A stretch of DNA of 14,266 bases from a virus (IMGVR_UViG_2703718840_000012), one strand, 5' to 3'; shown: positions 620 through 12,904, counted from the first letter of the stretch. Made by a program: numbers and translations. The notes: generated by a model not told the origin, from the sequence alone.

Positions 620-891
620 GTATTCGTATTGAAATTGGCGAACGTTATGTCGTTACCAGTGACAGCTTTCAGTTTATTCTCCACGAGAAAAAGAGAGCGG
701 AAAGCGGTAAAAACGCCGGTCAGGAATGGCTGTCGGTGGTTGGTTATTACCCGAAATTAAGCCAGCTCGTTTCCGGCCTGATGCATCACGATATTCTGAC
801 CGGAAGCGCAAAGTCTTTTGCTGATTTAAACGTGCAGGTTGAGCAACTCAGCAAGCGTTGTTCAGAGGCTTTTGGCTCATATGGCCGTTAA
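616..891 (+). CDS. hypothetical phage early-operon protein
   Basis: ATG at 616 with GGAGA at 604-608; the 3' end overlaps the gpA start at 881. Compact, overlapping organisation typical of a phage operon. Confidence 0.6.
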   Translation: MSIRIEIGERYVVTSDSFQFILHEKKRAESGKNAGQEWLSVVGYYPKLSQLVSGLMHHDILTGSAKSFADLNVQVEQLSKRCSEAFGSYGR

Positions 892-3157
892 AGCCTCCGG
901 GCGTTTTGTCCCTCCGTCAGCATTTGCCGCAGGCACCGGTAAGGCGTTTACCGGTGCTTATGCATGGAACGCGCCACGCGAGGCTGTCGGGCGCGAAAGA
1001 CCCCTTACACGTGACGAGATGCGTCAGGTGCAAGGTGTTTTATCCACGATTAACCGCCTGCCTTACTTTTTGCGCTCGCTGTTTACGTCACGCTATGACT
1101 ACATCCGGCGCAATAAAAGCCCGGTGCACGGGTTTTATTTTCTCACATCCACTTTTCAGCGTCGTTTATGGCCGCGCATTGAGCGTGTGAATCAGCGCCA
1201 TGAAATGAACACCGACGCGTCGTTGCTGTTTCTGGCAGAGCGTGACCATTATGCGCGTCTGCCGGGGATGAATGACAAGGAGCTGAAAAAGTTTGCCGCC
1301 CGTATCTCATCGCAGCTTTTCATGATGTATGAGGAACTCTGCGATGCCTGGGTGGATGCGCATGGCGAAAAAGAATCGCTGTTTACGGATGAGGCGCAGG
1401 CTCACCTCTATGGTCATGTTGCTGGTGCTGCACGTGCTTTCAATATTTCCCCGCTCTACTGGAAAAAATACCGTAAAGGGCAGATGACCAAGAGGCAGGC
1501 ATATTCTGCCATTGCCCGTCTGTTTAACGATGAGTGGTGGACCCATCAGCTTAAAGGCCAGCGTATGCGCTGGCATGAGGCGTTACTGATTGCTGTCGGG
1601 GAGGTCAATAAAGACCGTTCTCCTTATGCCAGTAAACATGCCATTCGTGATGTGCGTGCACGCCGCCAGGCAAATCTGGAATTTCTTAAATCGTGTGATC
1701 TCGAAAACAGGGAAACCGGCGAGCGCATCGACCTTATCAGTAAGGTGATGGGCAGTATTTCTAATCCTGAAATTCGCCGGATGGAGCTGATGAACACCAT
1801 TGCCGGTATTGAGCGTTACGCCGCAGCAGAGGGTGATGTGGGGATGTTTATCACGCTGACCGCGCCGTCAAAGTATCACCCGACACGTCAGGTCAGAAAA
1901 GGCGAAAGTAAAACCGTCCAGCTAAATCACGGCTGGAACGATGAGGCATTTAATCCAAAGGATGCGCAGCGTTATCTCTGCCGTATCTGGAGCCTGATGC
2001 GCACGGCATTCAAGGATAATGATTTACAGGTCTACGGTTTGCGTGTCGTCGAGCCACACCACGACGGAACGCCGCACTGGCATATGATGCTTTTTTGTAA
2101 TCCGCGCCAGCGTAACCAGATTATCGAAATCATGCGTCGCTATGCGCTCAAAGAGGATGGCGATGAAAGAGGAGCCGCGCGAAACCGTTTTCAGGCAAAA
2201 CACCTTAACCGGGGCGGTGCTGCGGGGTATATCGCGAAATACATCTCAAAAAACATCGACGGCTATGCACTGGATGGTCAGCTCGATAACGATACCGGCA
2301 GGCCGCTGAAAGACACTGCTGCGGCTGTTACCGCATGGGCGTCAACGTGGCGCATCCCGCAATTTAAAACGGTTGGTCTGCCAACAATGGGGGCTTACCG
2401 TGAACTACGCAAATTGCCGCGCGGCGTCAGCATTGCTGATGAGTTTGACGAGCGCGTCGAGGCTGCACGCGCCGCCGCAGACAGTGGTGATTTTGCGTTG
2501 TATATCAGCGCGCAGGGTGGGGCAAATGTCCCGCGCGATTGTCAGACTGTCAGAGTCGCCCGTAGCCCGTCGGATGACGTTAACGAGTACGAGGAAGAGG
2601 TCGAGAGGGTGGTCGGCATTTACGCGCCGCATCTCGGCGCGCGTCATATTCATATCACCAGAACGACGGACTGGCGCATTGTGCCGAAAGTTCCGGTCGT
2701 TGAGCCTTTGACTTTAAAAAGCGGCATCGCCGCGCCTCGGAGTCCTGTCAATAACTGTGGAAAGCTCACCGGTGGTGATACTTCGTTACCGGCTCCCACA
2801 CCTTCTGAGCACGCCGCAGCAGTGCTTAATCTGGTAGATGACGGTGTTATCGAATGGAATGACCAGGAGGTCGTGAGGGCGCTCAGAGGTGCATTAAAAC
2901 ACGGTCTGAGAAGACCAAACCGTCAGCAAAGAAACGGAAGCCCGTTAAAACCGCATGAAATAGCGCCATCGGCCAGACTGACCCGGTCGGAACGAATGCA
3001 AATTACCCGTATCCGCGTTGACCTTGCTCAGAACGGTATCAGGCCACAGCGATGGGAGCTTGAGGCGCTGGCGCGTGGCGCGACCGTAAATTATGACGGG
3101 GAAAAATTCACGTATCCGGTCGCTGATGAGTGGCCGGGATTCTCAACAAACATATAA
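881..3157 (+). CDS. A: P2-type replication initiation endonuclease gpA (rolling-circle initiator)
   Basis: ORF-track 839..3157 starts at a TTG; the ATG at 881 gives MAVKASGRFVPPSAFAAGTGK..., which I recognise as the P2 gpA N-terminus. Length (~758 aa) fits gpA and it contains the HWHMMLF block. Recognition is from memory, not a search. Confidence 0.9.
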   Translation: MAVKASGRFVPPSAFAAGTGKAFTGAYAWNAPREAVGRERPLTRDEMRQVQGVLSTINRLPYFLRSLFTSRYDYIRRNKSPVHGFYFLTSTFQRRLWPRIERVNQRHEMNTDASLLFLAERDHYARLPGMNDKELKKFAARISSQLFMMYEELCDAWVDAHGEKESLFTDEAQAHLYGHVAGAARAFNISPLYWKKYRKGQMTKRQAYSAIARLFNDEWWTHQLKGQRMRWHEALLIAVGEVNKDRSPYASKHAIRDVRARRQANLEFLKSCDLENRETGERIDLISKVMGSISNPEIRRMELMNTIAGIERYAAAEGDVGMFITLTAPSKYHPTRQVRKGESKTVQLNHGWNDEAFNPKDAQRYLCRIWSLMRTAFKDNDLQVYGLRVVEPHHDGTPHWHMMLFCNPRQRNQIIEIMRRYALKEDGDERGAARNRFQAKHLNRGGAAGYIAKYISKNIDGYALDGQLDNDTGRPLKDTAAAVTAWASTWRIPQFKTVGLPTMGAYRELRKLPRGVSIADEFDERVEAARAAADSGDFALYISAQGGANVPRDCQTVRVARSPSDDVNEYEEEVERVVGIYAPHLGARHIHITRTTDWRIVPKVPVVEPLTLKSGIAAPRSPVNNCGKLTGGDTSLPAPTPSEHAAAVLNLVDDGVIEWNDQEVVRALRGALKHGLRRPNRQQRNGSPLKPHEIAPSARLTRSERMQITRIRVDLAQNGIRPQRWELEALARGATVNYDGEKFTYPVADEWPGFSTNI

Positions 3158-3644: not shown

Positions 3645-5189
3645 TTAAGCGCTGTGTTCCTTGTCGAATAAGTTCACTTCTTCTGGTGTAATATCATTAT
3701 CCATTTCTTCGAATGCATCTAAATCCACAATTTTTGTTTTTTTCAAAATTGATAGTATTTTCTGTTTGTTTTTACTTTTGGCTGAACCCGGAATCCACTC
3801 TACATCCCACAGGCCATCAATGGTAAATGTTTTTTTTCCCTTGAGTTCATCATTTATGCGTTGACATAGGGCTGTTTTGTAATCGCCTTCCCATTGTGTG
3901 TGTATCTTCCCTTGAACTCGTTGAAACCAAATATCTAACATTTCAGTATTTGGTTGTTTACCTAGTTTACAATGAAGTTGTTGTAACTTGCCAAATTTGA
4001 GTTCATCGTCGTCATAAAGGAAGGTCAAGAGTTTTGCGAAAATAGCCATTCCCACTGGGTAGGTGGTTGGGTTTTTAGCCATGATGCTTGAAATAATTCC
4101 AAGCATTGCATCTAGTTGATGCCCACTATTTGTGATCTTTTTCTTCCTAAATAATTTTCGCAAGAAATCATTTAAATATCTAACTGTAATTTTGGAGTTT
4201 TGATGTTTTAAAGAAAATAAATATATTGCATACAACATTTTCTGTAGGGAGTTGAACGACTTTTCTATAATATATTCTTTTTTTGCTGATTTAAGGGAGT
4301 GAAGAATGATGTCGTCATGTAGTTCTGTTTTTCTTGAGTTTAAATCAAGCCCAAACTCACCTAAGACCTCAACCAAACACTTTGAGATTTTGTCCAAATC
4401 ATCTTTACTGCTTGAAAATATTCGATAATCATCTCTGTAGCGAACTACTTTGTAATCCGTTATTTTTTGCTCTTCAGTTTTTTTTCTTAGCTGTAAATCA
4501 ATTTCGCCTAAAATTAATTCGGCAAATGTATCCATCAACGTACTACCCAATGGTATTCCGTTTGTCTGATTACTCATCATCATCTGGATATGAGTGTCAA
4601 TCAATCGTCCTGGGTTATTGTTATTTTCTTTCTTTTTGGCCTCTTCTTTTGAGATGAATACCCATTCAAAGCTATGAGTGTAAATAGAAGGGTAGAAGTT
4701 TGAAATATCTGTGCTGAACATGAACTCATACTCAAGAGCCAATGAAAGACTTTTTTGTTCAAAATCTTCCCACCAGTTTAAAACAGATGCAGCTACGTTT
4801 GAGGTGTTCTTTTTGCTCACTGGGGTACTTGAGCATAAAAAAAGATCATTAGACTCAAACTCTCTAAATTTATTCTTTATAGCCTTCCAGTTGGAAGGGG
4901 ATGTAATAAGTTTACAAAAATACACGTAGTATAGAGGATTAATTAGTGTTATTCGTCGCCAGCTATATAAGCCATCTTTGCTGACTAAAACCTCGTAATT
5001 TATATTCTTCCCCATCAATGACTTGGAGTCAGGTTGGAAGTTGATTTTACCTTCATCTATCGCGGAGTTGATTTCTTCAAGCAAGGAAGAAAAATCGACA
5101 TAACTGGGTAGCTCCAGAGTAGTGTATGAATCATGCTGCAGAAAATACTTAAGCGCTCTACCAGTAGTTAATTCATAAATCTTTTTCAT
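3645..5189 (-). CDS. reverse transcriptase, Abi/UG-like single-gene type with ~220-aa C-terminal extension
   Basis: Translation shows RT motifs in order: SWRRITLINP (motif 2), FSTDISNFYPSI (motif A, catalytic D), NGIPLGSTLMDTFAELIL (motif B), VVRYRDDYRIF (YxDD motif C), GLDLNSRKT (motif D/E). ATG at 5189 (MKKIYELT...) is preferred; the ORF-track start at 5315 is a TTG and the extension reads as Cys/His-rich junk running into the cos flank. Same position and orientation as old in P2. Confidence 0.8.
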   Translation of the reverse strand: MKKIYELTTGRALKYFLQHDSYTTLELPSYVDFSSLLEEINSAIDEGKINFQPDSKSLMGKNINYEVLVSKDGLYSWRRITLINPLYYVYFCKLITSPSNWKAIKNKFREFESNDLFLCSSTPVSKKNTSNVAASVLNWWEDFEQKSLSLALEYEFMFSTDISNFYPSIYTHSFEWVFISKEEAKKKENNNNPGRLIDTHIQMMMSNQTNGIPLGSTLMDTFAELILGEIDLQLRKKTEEQKITDYKVVRYRDDYRIFSSSKDDLDKISKCLVEVLGEFGLDLNSRKTELHDDIILHSLKSAKKEYIIEKSFNSLQKMLYAIYLFSLKHQNSKITVRYLNDFLRKLFRKKKITNSGHQLDAMLGIISSIMAKNPTTYPVGMAIFAKLLTFLYDDDELKFGKLQQLHCKLGKQPNTEMLDIWFQRVQGKIHTQWEGDYKTALCQRINDELKGKKTFTIDGLWDVEWIPGSAKSKNKQKILSILKKTKIVDLDAFEEMDNDITPEEVNLFDKEHSA

Positions 5190-5395
5190 AATTAGTGATT
5201 TCTTCTTAAGTTGCGCACAAATAACTACCTGTTTTCTATCATGATAACGATGCGAATGCGAGCAATTCAGGAAGTGCATTACTCTGCATCGAAGCGCACG
5301 CAAGTCAGAGAACAATAACTGCCTGGCGACATCAGGACTGGCGCGCTAGTTGAGTGGTCATGCAACTGCATTAAAACCGCCCCATGAAGCGGGCG

Positions 5396-5527: not shown

Positions 5528-5722
5528 TAAATTGTCAGTTTTTGCTTTTACAAAAAAGCGTCCACTATGGACCTATCAGCGAGGCCCCACCGTCGTCAAC
5601 TACGATGGTGCCGTAGCCGACGACATTACGTACGGTCGAAAGATAGCAGAGGCTGTTGCTGACAATTGTTGATGTAAGCATCTCTGCTGTTCCACCCTTG
5701 AGTATGGGAAGACCGTACGTAA
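5528..5722 (+). ncRNA. candidate structured leader / retron-like ncRNA (msr-msd-like) upstream of RT2
   Basis: Nested and crossing inverted repeats: 9-bp aattgtcag (5530-5538) vs ctgacaatt (5659-5667), extendable to ~14 bp with a bulge; a two-tier hairpin at 5591-5622; a perfect 12-bp repeat ttacgtacggtc (5626-5637) vs gaccgtacgtaa (5711-5722) ending 18 nt before the RT2 ATG. Architecture is ncRNA -> RT -> effector as in retrons. Boundaries are approximate. Confidence 0.3.
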
Positions 5723-5739
5723 CTTTGAATTTGAATGGT

Positions 5740-6930
5740 ATGTTTATGGATAAATTTAAACCATACAGCAAATCCAATGCTCCTATCACAACACTTGAAA
5801 AGTTGTCAAAGGCTTTATCGATTTCTGTTGAAGAGCTTAAAGCTATTGCAGAATTACCATTAGATGAGAAATATACTCTAAAAGAAATTCCCAAAATTGA
5901 CGGAAGCAAACGGATTGTCTACTCCCTGCATCCTAAAATGAGATTATTACAGAGTAGAATTAATAAACGTATCTTTAAGGAATTGGTTGTTTTTCCTTCA
6001 TTTTTGTTTGGTTCAGTTCCCAGTAAAAATGATGTTTTAAATTCTAATGTCAAACGTGACTATGTTTCATGTGCAAAGGCTCATTGTGGAGCAAAAACAG
6101 TTCTCAAGGTGGATATAAGTAATTTTTTCGATAATATCCATAGAGATCTGGTTAGGAGCGTGTTTGAGGAGATATTGCATATTAAGGATGAGGCTCTTGA
6201 ATACTTGGTGGAAATATGTACTAAGGATGATTTTGTCGTACAGGGGGCCTTAACATCAAGCTATATAGCAACTTTGTGTTTATTCGCTGTTGAAGGGGAT
6301 GTGGTAAGACGTGCGCAGAGGAAAGGACTTGTTTATACGCGTTTGGTAGATGATATTACCGTGTCATCTAAAATAAGTAATTATGATTTTTCTCAAATGC
6401 AAAGCCATATAGAGAGGATGCTTTCTGAGCATGACTTGCCGATAAATAAGCGCAAAACTAAAATATTTCACTGTTCATCTGAACCTATAAAAGTACATGG
6501 TTTAAGAGTTGACTATGACTCACCTCGACTACCATCCGATGAAGTCAAAAGAATCAGGGCATCTATACATAATTTGAAATTACTGGCGGCAAAAAATAAC
6601 ACAAAAACAAGTGTTGCATACAGAAAAGAATTCAATAGATGTATGGGGAGAGTGAATAAGCTTGGCCGTGTTGCGCATGAAAAATATGAATCATTCAAGA
6701 AACAGTTGCAGGCAATAAAACCGATGCCATCTAAAAGAGATGTTGCTGTGATTGATGCAGCTATAAAAAGTTTAGAGTTGTCGTATTCGAAAGGTAATCA
6801 AAATAAACATTGGTATAAAAGAAAATATGATTTGACGAGATATAAGATGATTATTCTTACTCGCTCTGAATCATTTAAAGAAAAACTGGAGTGTTTTAAA
6901 TCTAGATTGGCATCTTTAAAACCATTATGA
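5740..6930 (+). CDS. retron-type reverse transcriptase (divergent catalytic motifs)
   Basis: Translation shows YTLKEIPKIDGSKRIVYSLHP (motifs 1-2), HCGAKTVLKVDISNFFDNI (motif A), VVQGALTSSYIATL (motif B), YTRLVDDI (motif C, both Asp present), INKRKTKI, then VHGLRVDY...VKRIRASIHNL, resembling the retron RT VTG/thumb region. Start is ambiguous among ATG 5704, 5740 and 5746, none with a strong SD; the ORF-track start 5656 is a TTG. Confidence 0.85.
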   Translation: MFMDKFKPYSKSNAPITTLEKLSKALSISVEELKAIAELPLDEKYTLKEIPKIDGSKRIVYSLHPKMRLLQSRINKRIFKELVVFPSFLFGSVPSKNDVLNSNVKRDYVSCAKAHCGAKTVLKVDISNFFDNIHRDLVRSVFEEILHIKDEALEYLVEICTKDDFVVQGALTSSYIATLCLFAVEGDVVRRAQRKGLVYTRLVDDITVSSKISNYDFSQMQSHIERMLSEHDLPINKRKTKIFHCSSEPIKVHGLRVDYDSPRLPSDEVKRIRASIHNLKLLAAKNNTKTSVAYRKEFNRCMGRVNKLGRVAHEKYESFKKQLQAIKPMPSKRDVAVIDAAIKSLELSYSKGNQNKHWYKRKYDLTRYKMIILTRSESFKEKLECFKSRLASLKPL

Positions 6931-7634
6931 ATGCAAATATTAGACTTCTCAAATATATTGTCGGTGTGTCGTCAGCTCTTTTTTTGATTTTTTCGCTAAT
7001 TTCTCTTTTTGAAACTATTCAGAATGAAAAGCTATATGAGCGTGATATATGCTTCGATAGCCAGTGCTTAAAATTTTTTGCGGAAAAAACATCTGGTATA
7101 GTAATGTATTTTCAGGCGTTTGGATGGCTTATAACAACTTTTGTTACCGTTTTTGGTGTTATGATTGCTTTGATGACATATAACGCTGGAGTTAAAAATA
7201 ATAATAATAGTAATTACACTAGTCATCTGACGATGTTTAGAGAATTTGCAAGTGCTGAGTTAACTAAAAGAAGTAGCATCTATCCAGAGAAAGTTAATTT
7301 TTTTAGATGGTATAGGGTTATGTTCCCTGAAGCGCAAGGCGGTGATATATCTGTTTCGAGAGATTATCTAGAAATAATATCTAGAATCAAATGTGTTATT
7401 GAGGAAGCCAATGCACATATTACAGAGGAAAATAAAGACTATAAATATAAAACTCATCAGAGAAAAATGATGGCTGTTTTGGATGAAATCGGTATATCGA
7501 TTAGTAATGGGCCCAAAAATATTTTTATTGAGGTTGAGAGTCAAATTTTGGATTATATCGATACTATTAATTTGTCATTTTGTCACTCCTCATCAGTGAT
7601 AGAATTAAGTAGAGTAAAAAGGAAGTATATATAG
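6927..7634 (+). CDS. two-transmembrane-helix membrane protein with ~150-aa soluble C-terminal domain; candidate effector of the RT2 module
   Basis: ATG overlaps the RT2 stop (ATGA at 6927-6930), indicating translational coupling. Two hydrophobic stretches (YIVGVSSALFLIFSLISLF and IVMYFQAFGWLITTFVTVFGVMIALMTY) near the N-terminus; same AT-rich composition as RT2. Confidence 0.8.
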   Translation: MNANIRLLKYIVGVSSALFLIFSLISLFETIQNEKLYERDICFDSQCLKFFAEKTSGIVMYFQAFGWLITTFVTVFGVMIALMTYNAGVKNNNNSNYTSHLTMFREFASAELTKRSSIYPEKVNFFRWYRVMFPEAQGGDISVSRDYLEIISRIKCVIEEANAHITEENKDYKYKTHQRKMMAVLDEIGISISNGPKNIFIEVESQILDYIDTINLSFCHSSSVIELSRVKRKYI

Positions 7635-7676: not shown

Positions 7677-8696
7677 TTATAAGTTATAATCAAGGAATTT
7701 TATGACTTCCATATCTAACCATTCATTTATTGACTTTATTCTCTCCTGTAATGGAATGAGTTCATTGCGGACAAAGACCTTTGCCACTTTTTCAATATCT
7801 CCTAGTGACCCGACATTCTCCGGCTTACCGCCCATCAACTGAAAGGGGATGCGGTGTGCGTCCAGGAGATCTGCGGCGCTGACTTTTTTGATATTAAAAA
7901 AATCGTCCTTCGTCGCCACTTCACTGAGGGGGATAATTTTAATGCCGTCGGCTTTCCCCTGTGGGGCATAGAGAAACAGGTTTTTAAAGTTGTTGCGGCC
8001 TTTTGACTTAACCATGTTTTCGCGAAGCATTTCGATATCGTTGCGGTCCTGCACGGCATCGGTGACGTACATGATGTATCCGGCATGAGCGCCGTTTTCG
8101 TAATACTTGCGGCGGAACAGCGTGGCCGACTCATTCAGCCAGGCAGAGTTAAGGGCGCTGAGATATTCCGGCAGGCCGTACAGCTCCTGATTAATATCAG
8201 GCTCCAGCAGGTGAAACACGGAGCCGGGCGCGAAGGCTGTCGGCTCGTTGAAGGACGGCACCCACCAGTAAACATCCTCCTCCACGCCACGACGGGTATA
8301 TTTGGCCGGTGAGGTTTCCAGTCTGATGACCTTACCGGTGGTGCTGTAACGCTTTTCCAGAAACGCATTACCGAACACCAGAAAATCCAGCACAAAGCGG
8401 CTGAAATCCTGCTGGGACAGCCACGGGTGCGGGATAAACGTTGAAGCCAGAATATTGCGTTTAACGTAAATCGGTGAGCTGTGATGCACGGCAGCACGCA
8501 GGCTTTTTGCCAGACCGGTAAAGCTGACCGGTGGCTCATACCATCTGCCGTTACTGATGCACTCGACGTAATCCAGAATATCACGGCGGTCGAGTACCGG
8601 CACCGGCTCACCAAAGGTGAATGCCTCCATTTTCGGGGCGCTGGCAGTCATTGTTTTCACCGCTGGCTGCGGTGTTTTCCCTTTTTTCTTACTCAT
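7677..8696 (-). CDS. Q: P2-type capsid portal protein gpQ
   Basis: 339-aa ORF (P2 gpQ is similar in size), GGAG RBS 9 nt upstream, ATG overlapping the stop of the upstream terminase ORF (ATGA at 8693-8696), cos-proximal and on the leftward strand as in P2. Confidence 0.88.
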   Translation of the reverse strand: MSKKKGKTPQPAVKTMTASAPKMEAFTFGEPVPVLDRRDILDYVECISNGRWYEPPVSFTGLAKSLRAAVHHSSPIYVKRNILASTFIPHPWLSQQDFSRFVLDFLVFGNAFLEKRYSTTGKVIRLETSPAKYTRRGVEEDVYWWVPSFNEPTAFAPGSVFHLLEPDINQELYGLPEYLSALNSAWLNESATLFRRKYYENGAHAGYIMYVTDAVQDRNDIEMLRENMVKSKGRNNFKNLFLYAPQGKADGIKIIPLSEVATKDDFFNIKKVSAADLLDAHRIPFQLMGGKPENVGSLGDIEKVAKVFVRNELIPLQERIKSINEWLDMEVIKFLDYNL

Positions 8697-9607
8697 CAGT
8701 AAAACTCCAGAATGGTGGATGTCAGCGGGGTGCTGATACCGGCGGTGAGTGGCTCATTTAACAGGGCGTGCATGGTCGCCCAGGCGAGATCGGCGTGGCT
8801 GGCTTCCTCGCTGCGGCTGGCCTCATAGGTGGCGCTGCGTCCGCTGCTGGTCATGGTCTTGCGGATAGCCATAAACGAGCTGGTGATGTCGGTGGCGCTG
8901 ACGTCATATTCCAGACAGCCACGGCGGATAACGTCTTTTGCCTTGAGCACCATTGCGGTTTTCATTTCCGGCGTGTAGCGGATATCGCGCGCGGCGGGAT
9001 AGAACGAGCGCACGAGCTGGAACACGCCGACACCGAGGCCGGTGGCATCAATCCCGATGTATTCAACGTTATATTTTTCGGTGAGTTTGCGGATGGATTC
9101 CGCCTGGGTGGCAAAGTCCATGCCTTTCCACTGGTGACGCTCAAGTATTCTGAATTTGCCACCGGCCACCACCGGCGGTGCCAGTACCACGCATCCGGCG
9201 CTGTCGCCACGGTGTGACGGGTCGTAACCAATCCATACCGGGCGGGAGCCGAACGGATTTGCGGCAAACGGCGCATAGTCTTCCCATTCTTCCAGCGTGT
9301 CGACCATGCAACGTTGCAGCTCCTCGAACGGGAACACCGACGCCTTGTCGTCAACAAATTCACACATGAACAGGTTTTTAAAATCGTCGGCGCTGTTTTC
9401 ACGTTTGAGCTGCTCAATGTCGAACAGTGTGCAGCCACCTTTCAGGGCGTCCTCAATGGTGACAATCTGCCGCCACTGGCCGTCCGCACAGAGAAGCCCA
9501 CCGGCAAGGGCGTTATGACTGACGTCGATTTCCACGCGTTCGGCGGCGCTGGCGCGTCCCCGGTTGAACAGTTCACCCGACCAGAACGGGTACCCTGGAT
9601 AATCCGG
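8696..9607 (-). pseudogene. P: terminase ATPase/nuclease subunit gpP, C-terminal ~300 aa only (5' half deleted)
   Basis: Reading frame is continuous with the Q overlap and is open upstream of the GTG at 9535 back to a TAA at 9608-9610, with no plausible start or N-terminal ATPase region. About 300 aa are present against the ~590 expected for gpP. Confidence 0.8.
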
Positions 9608-9846
9608 TTAAACGTGGTGAACAGGTTATCGAACAGGTCACGCTGATGAAACCCAATGCCGGGACGCTGCGCGGTGTCAGTCTGGCTGCGGTCGCAAACT
9701 CCGAAGTCGATGCACTGATTAAAGTGCTGCCGCGCATGACGGCACCGATGCTGACCGAGCAGGAGGTCGCCGCGCTGGAACTGCCTGACCTTGTGGCGCT
9801 GGCCGGTAAGGTGGTCGGTTTTTTGTCGCCGAACTCGGTGCAGTGA
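9568..9846 (+). pseudogene. E: tail assembly chaperone gpE, 5'-truncated at the deletion junction (first ATG at 9646)
   Basis: Frame open from 9568. Ends ...GKVVGFLSPNSVQ with the heptamer T TTT TTG (9819-9825) in the correct phase for the -1 shift that makes E+E' in P2-like phages. Abuts the P fragment on the opposite strand. Confidence 0.6.
9819..9825 (+). other. programmed -1 ribosomal frameshift slippery heptamer (T_TTT_TTG) of the E/E' pair
   Basis: X_XXY_YYZ pattern in phase with the E frame (codons GGT TTT TTG); the -1 frame stays open for ~55 codons to a TGA at 9990-9992. Confidence 0.55.
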
Positions 9847-9898
9847 CGTTTCCGAAAAATCTCTCGGTCGATGACCTGATGGCGGATGTGGCAGTGAT

Positions 9899-10675
9899 AT
9901 TTCACTGGCCGCCATCACCGGCATCAATGCCATCATCGCGGCAGCAGGCGCAATGGGGGCAATCTTCACGACGGTTGGCAGTGCTGTTATGACCGCCATC
10001 GGAGCGATTAGCTGGCCGGTTGTGGCCGTGGTGGCCGCCATTGTCGCCGGGGCGTTGCTTATCCGTAAATACTGGGAGCCTGTCAGCGCATTCTTTGGCG
10101 GTGTGGTGGAAGGGCTGAAAGCGGCATTTGCGCCGGTGGGGGAACTGTTCACGCCACTTAAGCCGGTGTTTGACTGGCTGGGCGAAAAGTTACAGGCCGC
10201 GTGGCAGTGGTTTAAAAACCTGATTGCCCCGGTTAAAGCCACCCAGGACACCCTGAACCGTTGCCGTGACACGGGCGTCATGTTCGGGCAGGCACTGGCT
10301 GACGCGTTGATGCTGCCGCTTAATGCGTTCAACAAACTGCGCAGTGGTATTGACTGGGTACTGGAAAAACTCGGTGTTATCAACAAAGAGTCAGACACAC
10401 TTGACCAGACCGCCGCCAGAACTCATGCCGCCACGTATGGCACCGGTGGTTATATTCCGGCGACCAGCTCTTATGCAGGCTATCAGGCTTATCAGCCGGT
10501 TACGGCACCGGCTGGCCGCTCTTATGTGGACCAGAGTAAAAACGAATATCACATCAGTCTGACGGGCGGTACTGCGCCGGGGACTCAGCTCGACCGCCAG
10601 TTACAGGATGCGCTCGAAAAATATGAGCGGGATAAACGTGCGCGCGCCCGTGCCAGCATGATGCATGACGGTTAA
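9899..10675 (+). pseudogene. T: tail tape measure protein gpT, C-terminal ~240-260 aa only
   Basis: Frame open from 9899, first ATG at 9953, stop at 10673-10675 directly before the U RBS. Hydrophobic segment plus a C-terminal ...ERDKRARARASMMHDG tail typical of P2-like tape measures; far shorter than the ~800 aa expected. Confidence 0.75.
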
Positions 10676-10689
10676 GGAGGTGACGAAAA

Positions 10690-11169
10690 ATGATGCTCGC
10701 GTTAGGTATGTTTGTTTTTATGCGCCAGACGCTGCCACACCAGACCATGCAGCGTGAATCAGATTATCGCTGGCCGTCAAATTCCCGTATCGGTAAACGG
10801 GATGCCTTTCAGTTTCTCGGTGTGGGTGAGGAAAACATTACGCTTGCCGGCGTGCTTTATCCCGAACTGACCGGCGGCAAGCTGACGATGACCACGCTCA
10901 GACTGATGGCAGAGGAAGGCCGGGCGTGGCCGTTGCTGGATGGCACCGGCATGATTTACGGCATGTATGTCATCAGCAGGGTGAATGAAACAGGGAGTAT
11001 TTTCTTTGCAGACGGCACACCCCGGAAAATTGATTTTACGCTGTCGCTCACCCGCGTTGATGAATCACTGGCCGCGCTTTATGGCGATATCGGTAAACAG
11101 GCGGAATCGCTCATCGGTAAGGCTGGCAGTATGGCGACTAAATTCACGGGTATGACGGGGGCGGGATAA
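10690..11169 (+). CDS. U: P2-type tail protein gpU
   Basis: 159-aa ORF beginning MMLALGMFVFMRQTLPHQ..., AAGGAGG RBS at 10673-10679; stop overlaps the D start by one base (TAATG). Confidence 0.9.
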   Translation: MMLALGMFVFMRQTLPHQTMQRESDYRWPSNSRIGKRDAFQFLGVGEENITLAGVLYPELTGGKLTMTTLRLMAEEGRAWPLLDGTGMIYGMYVISRVNETGSIFFADGTPRKIDFTLSLTRVDESLAALYGDIGKQAESLIGKAGSMATKFTGMTGAG

Positions 11170-12332
11170 TGCTGGATGCGCTGACATTTGATGCAGGCAG
11201 TACGCTGACGCCGGATTACATGCTGATGCTCGACAGCAGGGATATTACCGGCAATATCAGCGACCGTCTGATGAGCATGACCCTGACGGATAACCGGGGC
11301 TTTGAGGCTGACCAGCTTGATATTGAACTGAACGATGCCGACGGGCAGGTCGGGCTGCCGGTTCGTGGCGCTGTCCTGACGGTGTATATCGGCTGGAAAG
11401 GTTTTGCCCTGGTATGCAAAGGGAAATTCACCGTTGATGAGGTTGAACACCGGGGCGCGCCGGATGTGGTTACCATCCGCGCCCGGAGTGCAGATTTTCG
11501 CGGGACGCTCAATTCCCGCCGTGAAGGCTCATGGCATGACACCACGCTCGGTGCGATTGTTGAGGCGATAGCCTCCCGTAACAAGCTGGAAGCCAGTGTC
11601 GCGCCGTCACTGGACGGAATTAAAATCCCGCACATCGACCAGTCGCAGGAGTCTGATGCGAAATTCCTGACCCGCCTTGCTGAACGCAACGGCGGTGAGG
11701 TGTCGGTAAAAATGGGAAAACTGTTGTTTCTCAAAGCGGGGCAGGGGGTGACTGCCAGCGGTAAAAAAATCCCGCAGATTACCATCACCCGCAGCGACGG
11801 TGACCGTCATCATTTTGCGATTGCTGACCGTGGAGCTTACACCGGCGTAACGGCAAAGTGGTTACACACCAAAGACCCGAAGCCGCAAAAGCAGAAGGTA
11901 AAACTGAAACGCAAAAAGAAAGAAAAACACCTGCGCGCACTGGAGCACCCGAAAGCGAAACCGGTCACGCAGAAGAAAGCGCCAAAAGTACCGGAAGCGC
12001 GCGAAGGTGAATACATGGCCGGTGAAGCTGACAACGTTTTTGCCCTGACCACGGTATATGCCACAAAAGCGCAGGCTATGCGCGCCGCTCAGGCGAAGTG
12101 GGACAAACTGCAACGGGGCGTTGCGGAGTTCTCCATCAGCCTGGCTACCGGTCGGGCAGATATTTACACGGAAACACCGGTCAAAGTGTCAGGCTTTAAG
12201 CGCGTCATAGACGAGCAGGACTGGACAATCACTAAGGTGACACATTTTCTGAATAATAGCGGCTTCACGACGTCCTTGGAGCTTGAGGTCAGGCTTTCTG
12301 ATGTGGAGTACGAAACAGAAGATGATGAGTGA
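11169..12332 (+). CDS. D: P2-type tail protein gpD
   Basis: 387-aa ORF in the U-D-ogr order with a lysine-rich KPQKQKVKLKRKKKEK segment; recognised as the gpD family (yegZ in E. coli K-12 is a fragment of this gene). Confidence 0.9.
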   Translation: MLDALTFDAGSTLTPDYMLMLDSRDITGNISDRLMSMTLTDNRGFEADQLDIELNDADGQVGLPVRGAVLTVYIGWKGFALVCKGKFTVDEVEHRGAPDVVTIRARSADFRGTLNSRREGSWHDTTLGAIVEAIASRNKLEASVAPSLDGIKIPHIDQSQESDAKFLTRLAERNGGEVSVKMGKLLFLKAGQGVTASGKKIPQITITRSDGDRHHFAIADRGAYTGVTAKWLHTKDPKPQKQKVKLKRKKKEKHLRALEHPKAKPVTQKKAPKVPEAREGEYMAGEADNVFALTTVYATKAQAMRAAQAKWDKLQRGVAEFSISLATGRADIYTETPVKVSGFKRVIDEQDWTITKVTHFLNNSGFTTSLELEVRLSDVEYETEDDE

Positions 12333-12350
12333 TGTTTTTATTTTATCTGT

Positions 12351-12379
12351 TTGTTTTATAAGGATAAATTAACTAAAAT
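12351..12379 (+). promoter_or_regulatory. candidate ogr promoter (TTGTTT-17 nt-TAAAAT)
   Basis: -35 ttgttt 12351-12356, 17-nt spacer, -10 taaaat 12374-12379, about 35 nt upstream of the ogr ATG, in an AT-rich gap after D. Confidence 0.3.
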
Positions 12380-12413
12380 GGCACCATCAACAAAATCGGA
12401 AGAGGTGCTCGCG

Positions 12414-12632
12414 ATGTTTCATTGTCCTTTATGCCAGCATGCCGCACATGCGCGTACAAGCCGCTATATCACTGACACGACAAAAGAGCGTTATCACCAG
12501 TGTCAGAACGTGAATTGCAGCGCCACGTTTATCACTTATGAGTCGGTACAGCGATACATCGTGAAGCCGGGAGAAGTCCACGCCGTAAGACCGCACCCGT
12601 TGCCGTCAGGGCAGCAAATTATGTGGATGTAA
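12414..12632 (+). CDS. ogr: Ogr late-gene transcription activator (C4 zinc finger)
   Basis: 72-aa product MFHCPLCQHAAHARTSRYITDTTKERYHQCQNVNCSATF... with CxxC-N22-CxxxxC cysteines, recognised as P2 Ogr (ogrK in K-12). ORF-track start 12351 is a TTG; the ATG at 12414 has a GGAAGAGGTG RBS. Confidence 0.9.
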   Translation: MFHCPLCQHAAHARTSRYITDTTKERYHQCQNVNCSATFITYESVQRYIVKPGEVHAVRPHPLPSGQQIMWM

Positions 12633-12733: not shown

Positions 12734-12760
12734 AAAAAATAAGCCCGTGTAAGGGAGATT
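12734..12760. other. P2 attachment-site core (attR), 27 bp AAAAAATAAGCCCGTGTAAGGGAGATT
   Basis: Exact 27-nt string at 12734-12760, about 100 nt after ogr and 145 nt before host yegQ, matching the P2 att core as I recall it. The phage-host junction is therefore here. Confidence 0.65.
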
Positions 12761-12904
12761 ACACAGGCTAAGGAGGTGGTTCCTGGTACAGCTAGCATTT
12801 TATGGGTTATGTTTTTCAGCGAAACGGATGATAACCTTAATAAATGCAGCTGTATGTGATCGGTTTCTAAGAATTTTCCATCCGGGAAAAATAATCGAAA
12901 TTAA

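What the first reader, a model, noticed from the sequence alone, without database searches (positions are those of the whole stretch)
9846..10675. Tape measure gene reduced to its C-terminal quarter while the E/E' frameshift signal is intact
The slippery heptamer and a ~55-codon -1 frame extension survive, but the T frame opens only at 9899 and yields about 240-260 aa. There is either a second internal deletion within T or a single complex rearrangement. The surviving piece includes the hydrophobic segment and C-terminus.
Basis: partly seen in the sequence, partly recalled or inferred. Interest (0 to 1): 0.35.

Follow-up and report, generated by a model that had tools for sequence, protein, structure and literature searches.

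The report
Decayed P2 prophage: truncated tape-measure gene
The short "tape measure" is the dead C-terminal 31% of the P2 gene T in a decaying E. coli prophage; the notable point is that the deletions which made it end at breakpoints reused, to the nucleotide, in many other decayed P2 prophages.

Summary
The window is an E. coli-type chromosome carrying a P2-like prophage remnant beside yegQ/CyaR.

Two deletions relative to intact P2/Wphi explain it:
- **Deletion 1 (~15.5 kb):** joins terminase gene P (nt 877) to codon 8 of E, at 9591/9592, sharing TA.
- **Deletion 2 (1,763 bp):** joins the E' extension to T codon 563, at 9914-9917, sharing ATCA.

Consequences:
- E has lost its start codon and promoter.
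- E' keeps 31 native codons, then reads 24 out-of-frame T codons.
- T has lost its start, 562 codons and its PF10145 domain.
- The 253 surviving T codons are out of frame with both E and E'. The first start is ATG 9953, giving 240 aa.
- Sheath, tube, baseplate, capsid and lysis genes are gone, so no tail can be built. Intact relatives all have an 815-aa T.

Unexpectedly, the breakpoints recur. The P-877 end is joined, nucleotide-exactly, to at least 14 different partners in other remnants. These lie at three integration loci and on different P haplotypes. T-1686, E-21 and E'-65/71 recur too, and one contig joins P-877 directly to T-1686. Most junctions share TA. The cause of these hotspots is unresolved.

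The parts
8696..9592 (-). Remnant of terminase large-subunit gene P. The C-terminal 299 codons (P nt 877-1773) are kept, and gene callers start it at GTG 9535 (279 aa). Its upstream end is the recurrent breakpoint 'P877'.
   Evidence: blastn to the intact P in L002. Pfam Terminase_6C plus the tail of Terminase_6N. The same P end is seen in many other loci.
9591..9592 (.). Deletion junction 1. The dinucleotide TA is shared by P (…ACGGGTA|GGCG) and E (…GATTA|CCCTGG). About 15.5 kb is missing relative to Wphi (2119-17633): the P N-terminus, O through FII, and E codons 1-7.
   Evidence: Overlapping blastn alignments 9201-9592 and 9591-9917.
9592..9846 (+). Remnant of tail-assembly chaperone gene E: codons 8-91 plus the stop. 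The start codon and late promoter are lost. The first in-frame ATG is at 9646 (E Met26, 66 aa).
   Evidence: 97% identical to Wphi E from E nt 21. Frame translation. Pfam Phage_TAC_7 matches profile positions 22-78 only. No promoter-like site in 9300-10800.
9819..9825 (+). Intact slippery heptamer TTTTTTG of the P2 E/E' -1 programmed frameshift.
   Evidence: Identical to Wphi. E+E' is annotated as a -1 frameshift product in Wphi.
9826..9917 (+). Native part of the E' -1 frame extension: 31 codons ending …VIFHWPPS. The last 26 native codons are deleted.
   Evidence: Pfam PF06528 matches profile positions 1-13 of 37.
9914..9917 (.). Deletion junction 2. The tetranucleotide ATCA is shared by E' (…CTGGCCGCCATCA) and T (…CTGGCCGGTTATCA). 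1,763 bp are missing: the E' 3' end, the T ATG and T codons 1-562. The T side lies in the loop of the hairpin GCCGGT-TATC-ACCGGC.
   Evidence: Pairwise alignment. DNA fold. The T side recurs in L009 and L057.
9918..9992 (+). T sequence read in the E' frame: 24 non-native codons, then the stop at 9990-9992.
   Evidence: Frame translation. ORF list entry 9843..9992. No gene with this product is on record anywhere.
9914..10675 (+). Tape-measure (T) remnant: codons 563-815 plus the stop. It is out of frame with E and E'. The first start is ATG 9953 (T Met576), giving a 240-aa ORF. It includes the distal ~55 residues of the hydrophobic block and the C-terminus.
   Evidence: 252 of 253 residues identical to Wphi T 563-815, with 16 synonymous and 1 non-synonymous codon differences. 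No Pfam domain..
10690..11169 (+). Gene U, intact length (159 aa).
   Evidence: Pfam Phage_P2_GpU 7.5e-44. Same length as in Wphi.
11169..12332 (+). Gene D, baseplate hub, intact length (387 aa).
   Evidence: Pfam Phage_GPD. Same length as in Wphi.
12414..12632 (+). ogr, the late-gene activator (72 aa).
   Evidence: Pfam Ogr_Delta 2e-21. Annotation of homologous loci.
12734..12760 (+). Exact 27-nt P2 att core (attR), the right end of the prophage. It overlaps the 3' end of the CyaR sRNA gene.
   Evidence: Exact match, 0 expected by chance. CyaR at 12737-12822 on the minus strand.

Best explanation
The feature is a pseudogene landscape left by the decay of a P2-type prophage integrated at the yegQ/cyaR att site.

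**How it arose.** Relative to an intact phage there are two deletions, each sealed at a short microhomology:
- A ~15.5-kb deletion runs from nt 877 of terminase gene P to nt 21 of E, sharing TA.
- A 1,763-bp deletion runs from codon ~31 of the E' frameshift extension to codon 563 of T, sharing ATCA and flanked by an imperfect CTGGCCG repeat.

**What remains.** Between them sits a 322-bp island holding a start-less E fragment and the still-perfect T7G slippery site. After it come the last 253 codons of T, then intact-length U, D and ogr.

**Why it is dead.** None of the pieces can do its original job:
- E has no start codon or late promoter.
- The -1 product would be a chimera.
- The T piece is out of frame with both E and E', and lacks its start, 69% of its length and its Pfam tape-measure domain.
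- The sheath, tube, baseplate, capsid and lysis genes are absent.

**Shown versus inferred.** The homology coordinates, frames, missing genes and lack of decay in the remnant are shown. The remnant differs from Wphi almost only at synonymous sites, so I infer that the deletion is evolutionarily recent. The mode of deletion is also inferred: microhomology-mediated illegitimate recombination or template switching, at breakpoints that are hotspots in this phage family.
For: - **Coordinates.** Window 9201-9592 matches P, 9591-9917 matches E nt 21 to E' nt 71, and 9905 onward matches T nt 1677 to D, all at 97-98% identity to Wphi and to an E. coli prophage.
- **Frames.** Frame analysis and translations.
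- **Domains.** Pfam finds only partial E and E' matches and nothing for the T piece. U, D, ogr, Q and the P C-terminus are recognised.
- **Relatives.** Intact relatives carry FI, FII, E, E' and an 815-aa T. No phage record spans the junction.
- **Expression.** No sigma-70-like promoter lies in 9300-10800.
- **Age.** The T remnant is 252/253 aa identical to Wphi, with 16 synonymous and 1 non-synonymous codon changes.
- **Context.** The att core is at 12734-12760. Other remnants at the same and other loci show many different deletions, including the K-12 yegZ-ogrK remnant.
Against: - The exact junctions are found in no other public record searched, so they rest on this one sequence.
- Expression was not measured. 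The 240-aa ORF could be translated from read-through transcription.
- Two independent deletions versus one complex event cannot be told apart from sequence.
Confidence: 0.88

Rival explanations
1. One complex replication-based event made both junctions at once. This would be serial template switching of the FoSTeS/MMBIR type. A nascent strand ending …ACGGGTA at P877 jumped to E nt 21, copied 322 nt, then jumped from E' nt 71 to T nt 1687.
For: - Both junctions have 2-4 nt of microhomology, and the island is collinear and short.
- Other P877 remnants also carry a short island between two junctions: L039 396 bp, FT130 366 bp, L052 697 bp.
- P877 and T1686 are joined directly in L057.
Against: - Prophage remnants commonly accumulate several separate deletions.
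- E21 and E'65-71 are each used on their own in other loci (L021/L056, L058, L003).
- Nothing in the sequence dates the two junctions relative to each other.
Confidence: 0.22
2. The junctions were made by a site-preferring enzyme acting at pseudo-sites, not by generic microhomology repair. Candidates are the phage integrase, another recombinase or nickase, or a nuclease cutting across TA.
For: - Breakpoints recur to the nucleotide with different partners: P877 with at least 14, and also T1686, E21, FI381, igE, D952 and E'65-71.
- In K-12 the D952 site is joined inside the attL core (…CCCGTGTA|GCAGAG), which looks integrase-made.
- TA-containing breakpoints are enriched for GG at -5/-4 and CC at +2/+3, roughly GGNTANCC (p~1e-3 per position).
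- Some breaks lie in hairpin loops.
Against: - P877 shows no similarity to cos, ori or the att core beyond chance.
- Likeness of the sites to the att core is marginal.
- P877 junctions occur in prophages with three different att/int types.
- Junctions show variable microhomology of 2-5 nt matching the retained …GGGTA end, as expected for annealing of a free 3' end.
- The motif was derived post hoc and is partly forced by that microhomology.
Confidence: 0.2
3. The short T ORF is a functional gene. It would be either a short tape measure for a tailocin-like particle, or a domesticated membrane protein expressed with U and D.
For: - The ORF is intact from ATG 9953, is highly conserved, and begins with two predicted hydrophobic helices.
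- U and D are of intact length.
- The same 240-aa product is called in 77 blocks of the protein collection.
Against: - Those other calls arise from mixed causes: indels, a nonsense codon, scaffold gaps and one other deletion.
- There are no sheath, tube, baseplate or fibre genes, and no promoter-like site.
- The conservation is inherited from the phage, not evidence of selection after the deletion.
- Other remnants keep different lengths of T, starting at nt 1147, 1443, 1833 or 2129.
Confidence: 0.03
4. The arrangement is an assembly artefact, with reads from two P2-like prophages in one genome collapsed together.
For: - The junctions are unique to this window.
- Many E. coli genomes carry several P2-like copies (median 3 places per genome).
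Against: - Both junctions have clean microhomology.
- The P877 and T1686 ends coincide with natural breakpoints seen in complete genomes and in independent assemblies.
- The surrounding 14 kb is collinear with real remnants at the same locus.
Confidence: 0.04

Closest known systems
Bacteriophage P2 / Wphi gene T (tail length tape measure, 815 aa, PF10145)
   Same: Window 9914-10675 is 98% identical in DNA, and 252/253 identical in protein, to T codons 563-815. It sits in the same position upstream of U, D and ogr.
   Different: It lacks the start codon, codons 1-562, the PF10145 domain and half of the hydrophobic block. It is not preceded by an intact E/E', and no tail genes are left for it to measure.
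P2 E/E' programmed -1 frameshift tail chaperones (the FETUD operon). The T7G slip site is recalled from my own knowledge of Christie et al. 2002, and Wphi annotates the frameshift product.
   Same: The slippery TTTTTTG and the 31 codons after it are identical or near-identical to Wphi.
   Different: E codons 1-7 and the promoter are deleted. The last 26 E' codons are replaced by 24 out-of-frame T codons.
E. coli K-12 cryptic P2 remnant yegZ(D')-ogrK at the yegQ/cyaR locus
   Same: Same chromosomal locus, same attR core, and same kind of decay. The window is a less-eroded state of the same type of remnant.
   Different: K-12 keeps only D nt 952 to the end plus ogr. Its left junction lies inside the attL core, so it looks integrase-made. 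The window keeps the early region, defence cargo, Q, P', the E island, T', U and D, and its junctions are internal to the prophage.
Fixed-end deletion series, recalled from my own knowledge and not tested here: deletions at M13/pC194 origin nicks (Michel & Ehrlich 1986), and G4-anchored deletions in C. elegans dog-1.
   Same: One breakpoint (P877) is nucleotide-fixed. Partners are variable and chosen by 2-5 nt of homology to the retained 3' end …GGGTA.
   Different: No origin-, cos- or att-like sequence and no G4 on the appropriate strand could be shown at P877. Several partner sites are themselves recurrent.

Membership tests
Functional P2-type tape measure gene (gpT) | Full-length ORF (~815 aa) containing the PhageMin_Tail domain (PF10145) | tested here: not met
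   Only codons 563-815 remain, and Pfam finds no domain in the 240-aa ORF. Intact relatives have an 815-aa T with PF10145.
Functional P2-type tape measure gene (gpT) | Own start codon overlapping the end of E', within the FI-FII-E-E'-T-U-D operon | tested here: not met
   The T ATG (Wphi 18034) lies inside the 1,763-bp deletion. FI and FII are absent.
Functional P2-type tape measure gene (gpT) | C-terminal region homologous to gpT and followed by U and D | tested here: met
   252/253 aa identity to Wphi T 563-815. U and D follow at intact length.
P2 E/E' -1 frameshift chaperone cassette | Slippery heptamer T7G near the 3' end of E | tested here: met
   TTTTTTG at 9819-9825, identical to Wphi.
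P2 E/E' -1 frameshift chaperone cassette | Complete E ORF with its start codon | tested here: not met
   E homology starts at E nt 21. The first in-frame ATG is Met26. Pfam covers profile positions 22-78 of 79.
P2 E/E' -1 frameshift chaperone cassette | Complete E' extension (PF06528) ending just inside T | tested here: not met
   Native for 31 codons, then 24 foreign codons. PF06528 matches profile positions 1-13 of 37.
P2-like (Peduovirus) prophage remnant | P2 gene order and >95% DNA identity for A, Q, P, E, T, U, D and ogr, bounded by the P2 att core | tested here: met
Integrase-mediated secondary-site deletion (as at the K-12 yegZ border) | One junction partner is the att core, or both partners resemble it | tested here: not met
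   Neither window junction involves the att core. Neither P877 nor its flanks resemble att, ori or cos above shuffled controls. The site set as a whole is only marginally att-like. P877 is used in prophages with three att types.

The most novel reading that the evidence does not exclude
P2-type prophages are not eroded at random. They are dismantled at a small set of nucleotide-precise breakpoints: P nt 877 above all, then T nt 1686, E nt 21, E' nt 65-71, FI nt 381, the FII-E intergenic hairpin foot, and D nt 952. These are reused in independent lineages, at different integration sites, with different partners, and are typically sealed across a TA. That would imply a specific, still unidentified source of breaks or stalled 3' ends within P2 DNA. 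It could be a structure- or sequence-preferring nickase or recombinase, or a replication block. The truncated T in this window would be one of its products.
Probability: 0.3. Interest if true: 0.6.

Novelty: new member of a known kind. Interest (0 to 1): 0.3.

Why it matters
**The truncated T by itself matters little.** It is a correctly recognisable pseudogene, and annotators should not call 9953-10675 a "tape measure protein" or 9646-9846 a "tail assembly chaperone".

**It is a useful intermediate.** It documents a stage between an intact P2 prophage and the minimal K-12 yegZ-ogrK remnant at the same locus. The early region and two reverse-transcriptase defence systems (AbiP2, and a type IV retron) are kept while the virion and lysis genes are lost. 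That fits the idea that remnants persist as defence islands.

**The recurrent breakpoints are the part worth following.** If P877 and its companions are true mutational hotspots, prophage domestication in this family is partly deterministic. The cause of the breaks could then be tested genetically.

Tried and rejected
- **Searching for the junctions elsewhere.** I looked for the window's exact E'-T junction in GTDB genomes, JGI metagenomes and IMG/VR, and by megablast in 5,426 E. coli genomes. Nothing was found.
- **Using the 240-aa and 66-aa products as markers.** The 240-aa call arises elsewhere from indels, a nonsense codon, scaffold gaps and one other deletion. The 66-aa call is also made in intact prophages. 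The chimeric 49-aa E' ORF is on record nowhere.
- **P877 as a pseudo-site.**
  - Pseudo-cos: a nick-aligned 10/16 match, but 163 other positions in Wphi do as well, and local alignment is no better than shuffles.
  - Pseudo-ori of gpA: the ori GCGCCTCGGAGTCCTGTCAATAAC is at window 2732, with no similarity.
  - Pseudo-att: no similarity. A set-wide test was marginal, p=0.035 against TA sites.
- **An element inserted at P877.** No intron, homing element or IS sits there in any of 359 phage records, and no foreign DNA lies at any junction.
- **The reciprocal class**, where the P N-terminal side is kept. None was found in IMG/VR with one strict pattern, which is weak evidence.
- **Ideas considered from sequence only and dropped.** Chi, Vsr/Dcm, EcoKI, Hin/Gin-type invertase sites, integron core sites, gyrase 4-nt-stagger exchange (the junctions keep 2 nt, not 4), and RSF1010/ColE1 oriT likeness. 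Each fits a few sites but not the set.
- **Literature.** The 1994 paper on the P2 A-protein cleavage site is not held. Text searches found no description of a P877 hotspot.
- **Counting P877-truncated copies in complete E. coli genomes.** Only bounds were possible: 16 records lack a full-length match across the site. The excess of 153 retained-side places is mostly divergent relatives that the other query misses.

Full report
**What the window is.** Megablast of the whole window against complete E. coli genomes places it in a P2-like prophage next to yegQ. From left to right the window holds:
- the P2 early genes and replication gene A (839-3157)
- two reverse-transcriptase defence systems
- portal gene Q (7677-8696, minus strand)
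- part of terminase gene P
- small pieces of E and T
- U, D and ogr at intact length
- the exact 27-nt P2 att core (12734-12760)
- the start of yegQ

No complete genome, GTDB representative, JGI metagenome contig or IMG/VR contig carries the same junctions.

**The anatomy at 9590-10675.** I aligned the window to phage Wphi (AY135739, annotated E, E+E', T, U, D) and to an E. coli prophage. Three collinear blocks result:
- Window 9201-9592 matches the C-terminal part of P.
- Window 9591-9917 matches E nt 21 through nt 71 of the E' region.
- Window 9905 onward matches T nt 1677 through U, D, ogr and attR.

The residue-level alignment resolves the second overlap. The window follows E' through …CTGGCCGCCATCA, and follows T from ATCACCGGC… onward. 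The crossover is therefore in ATCA (9914-9917), next to an imperfect CTGGCCG repeat. The loss is 1,763 bp. The first junction is the dinucleotide TA (9591-9592), and the loss there is about 15.5 kb, from the P N-terminus through FII and the first seven codons of E.

**Reading frames.**
- **E frame.** E reads in frame 1 (coordinate mod 3). It has no start until ATG 9646, which is E Met26.
- **Slip site.** The slippery TTTTTTG (9819-9825) is untouched.
- **E' frame.** The -1 frame (frame 0) gives 31 native E' residues ending VIFHWPPS. It then crosses the junction and reads T DNA in the wrong frame for 24 codons, to the stop at 9990-9992.
- **T frame.** The true T frame (frame 2) is open from 9875. 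It becomes T sequence at 9914 (Ile563) and has its first start codon at ATG 9953 (Met576), giving the 240-aa ORF.

The T piece is thus out of frame with both E and E'.

**Domain searches agree.** The E piece matches only the distal part of Phage_TAC_7. The -1 ORF matches 13 of 37 positions of Phage_P2_GpE. The T piece matches nothing, because PF10145 lies in the deleted part.

**Function.** Sheath, tube, baseplate, fibre, capsid and lysis genes are absent. The late promoter upstream of FI is gone, and a consensus scan finds no promoter-like site in 9300-10800. Every intact relative seen has an 815-aa T. None of 104 matching phage records spans the junction. The hydrophobic block of T (about residues 533-617) is cut at 563.

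The remnant differs from Wphi at 17 of 254 codons, 16 of them synonymous. That is the signature of divergence between functional phages, not of decay after the deletion, so I infer the deletion is recent. I conclude with high confidence that 9592-10675 is non-functional debris of the P2 E-E'-T region. It is wrong in detail: the deletion starts in E' rather than inside T, E is also truncated, and the -1 extension is chimeric.

**Recurrent breakpoints.** This came up unexpectedly. I looked up the window's truncated terminase product (279 aa), hoping to find the source strain. It is on record in 341 blocks of the protein collection. Apart from one frameshifted but otherwise intact P, every place shown has P cut at exactly the same nucleotide as the window (…ACGGGTA|), yet joined to a different partner. 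The partners include the H/G region, J nt 838, upstream of V, FI nt 751, upstream of E, T nt 1833, D nt 401 and D nt 952.

Any break within about 120 nt would have given the same gene call, so this coincidence is not an ascertainment effect. Pattern scans that presuppose the P end then added further partners: N nt 607, I nt 282, M nt 432, T nt 1447, T nt 2133 and, notably, T nt 1686. The last is the window's own T breakpoint, joined directly to P877 in IMG/VR contig L057.

The P877-truncated alleles are scattered among intact P haplotypes in a neighbour-joining tree. They occur in prophages at three loci with different att cores: yegQ, fieF and pflB. Both facts argue for repeated events and against a single integrase as the cause.

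Other sites recur too:

| Site | Where it is seen |
|---|---|
| E nt 21 | window; FI381\|E21 in L021 and L056 |
| T nt 1686 | window; J27\|T1686 in L009; L057 |
| E' nt 65-71 | window; L058; L003 |
| FI nt 381-386 | four arrangements |
| Foot of the FII-E terminator hairpin | several loci |
| T nt 1833-1835 | L038; L022 |
| J nt 836-838 | L033; L088 |
| Q nt ~755 | L022; L088 |
| D nt 952 | several loci |

D952 is also the left border of the classical K-12 yegZ-ogrK remnant. There it is fused inside the attL core (…CCCGTGTA|GCAGAGTTC).

**What the junctions look like.**
- Most share a TA, although TA makes up only 4.1% of dinucleotides in Wphi.
- Partner sites tend to match the retained …GGGTA end over 2-5 nt on their deleted side.
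- TA-containing breakpoints are enriched for GG upstream and CC downstream. This is post hoc, at about 1e-3 per position.
- A few breaks lie in loops of short GC-rich hairpins, including T1686 (GCCGGT-TATC-ACCGGC).
- No junction contains foreign DNA.

**Candidate causes tested.** P877 shows no more than chance similarity to cos, the gpA origin or att. No phage carries an insertion there. Likeness of the whole site set to the att core is marginal.

My reading is an inference, not a demonstration. A recurrent free or stalled 3' end, ending in the weakly stacked TA after a GC clamp, anneals at downstream microhomologies. A site-preferring enzyme remains possible. Several P877 remnants carry a short island between two junctions: 322 bp in the window, and 366, 396 and 697 bp elsewhere.

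**Verdict.** As posed, the finding is an ordinary cryptic-prophage pseudogene, mostly correctly observed. It is a new instance of a known kind. Its interest is raised modestly because both of its junctions sit on breakpoints that are reused across independently decayed P2 prophages. I found no description of this pattern in the literature searches I could run, and it could be tested directly.

Noticed in passing
window 9591-9592 (P nt 877); loci L025-L040, L042, L048, L052, L054, L057, L058, L088, L098: This is a nucleotide-exact recurrent deletion breakpoint in terminase gene P (…ACGGGTA|GGCGTCG). It is joined to at least 14 different partners in other P2 remnants. Those remnants lie at three integration loci and on different P haplotypes. 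Always the Q-proximal side of P is kept. The mechanism is unknown.
   Followed up: partly
window 9914-9917 (T nt 1686); L009 1273; L057: The T-side breakpoint lies in the loop of the hairpin GCCGGT-TATC-ACCGGC. It is reused in a J|T deletion (L009) and in a direct P877|T1686 fusion (L057).
   Followed up: partly
L089/L090 (E. coli K-12 and WF5-5-T1) ~1480-1510; window 12110-12125: The K-12 yegZ-ogrK remnant begins where the attL core (…AAAAAATAAGCCCGTGTA) is fused to D nt 952. The same D site is fused to P877 (L030, L037, L040) and to V nt 369 (L039) elsewhere.
   Followed up: partly
window 3645-5315 (-), 5656-6930 (+), 6927-7634 (+): Defence cargo lies in the P2 hotspot between A and Q and is kept intact in the remnant. 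It comprises an AbiP2-type DRT reverse transcriptase (PADLOC 4e-160) and a type IV (Ec48-like) retron RT with its 2TM effector. Rfam found no retron ncRNA at gathering threshold.
   Followed up: partly
window 12737-12822 (-) and 12734-12760: The CyaR/RyeE sRNA gene (Rfam, 100.7 bits) overlaps the exact 27-nt P2 att core. The prophage is therefore integrated at the 3' end of cyaR, which the att core regenerates.
   Followed up: no
window 9593-9913; L039, L098 (FT130), L052: Several P877 remnants carry a short collinear island (322-697 bp) between two junctions. This pattern is compatible with serial template switching as well as with successive deletions.
   Followed up: partly
L004, L005, L006, L008, L011 (T gene around codon 540-576): In other assemblies, T is split into a ~520-590-aa call and the same 240-aa call. 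The causes are single-base indels or a TGG-to-TAG change just upstream of Met576. Some are probably long-read homopolymer errors.
   Followed up: partly
L003 (E. coli ET791) 10677-12532: At the same yegQ locus, another remnant carries an inverted E'-T segment fused to D nt 1054 and a portal fragment. This shows that inversions, as well as deletions, use the E' nt 65-71 region.
   Followed up: no
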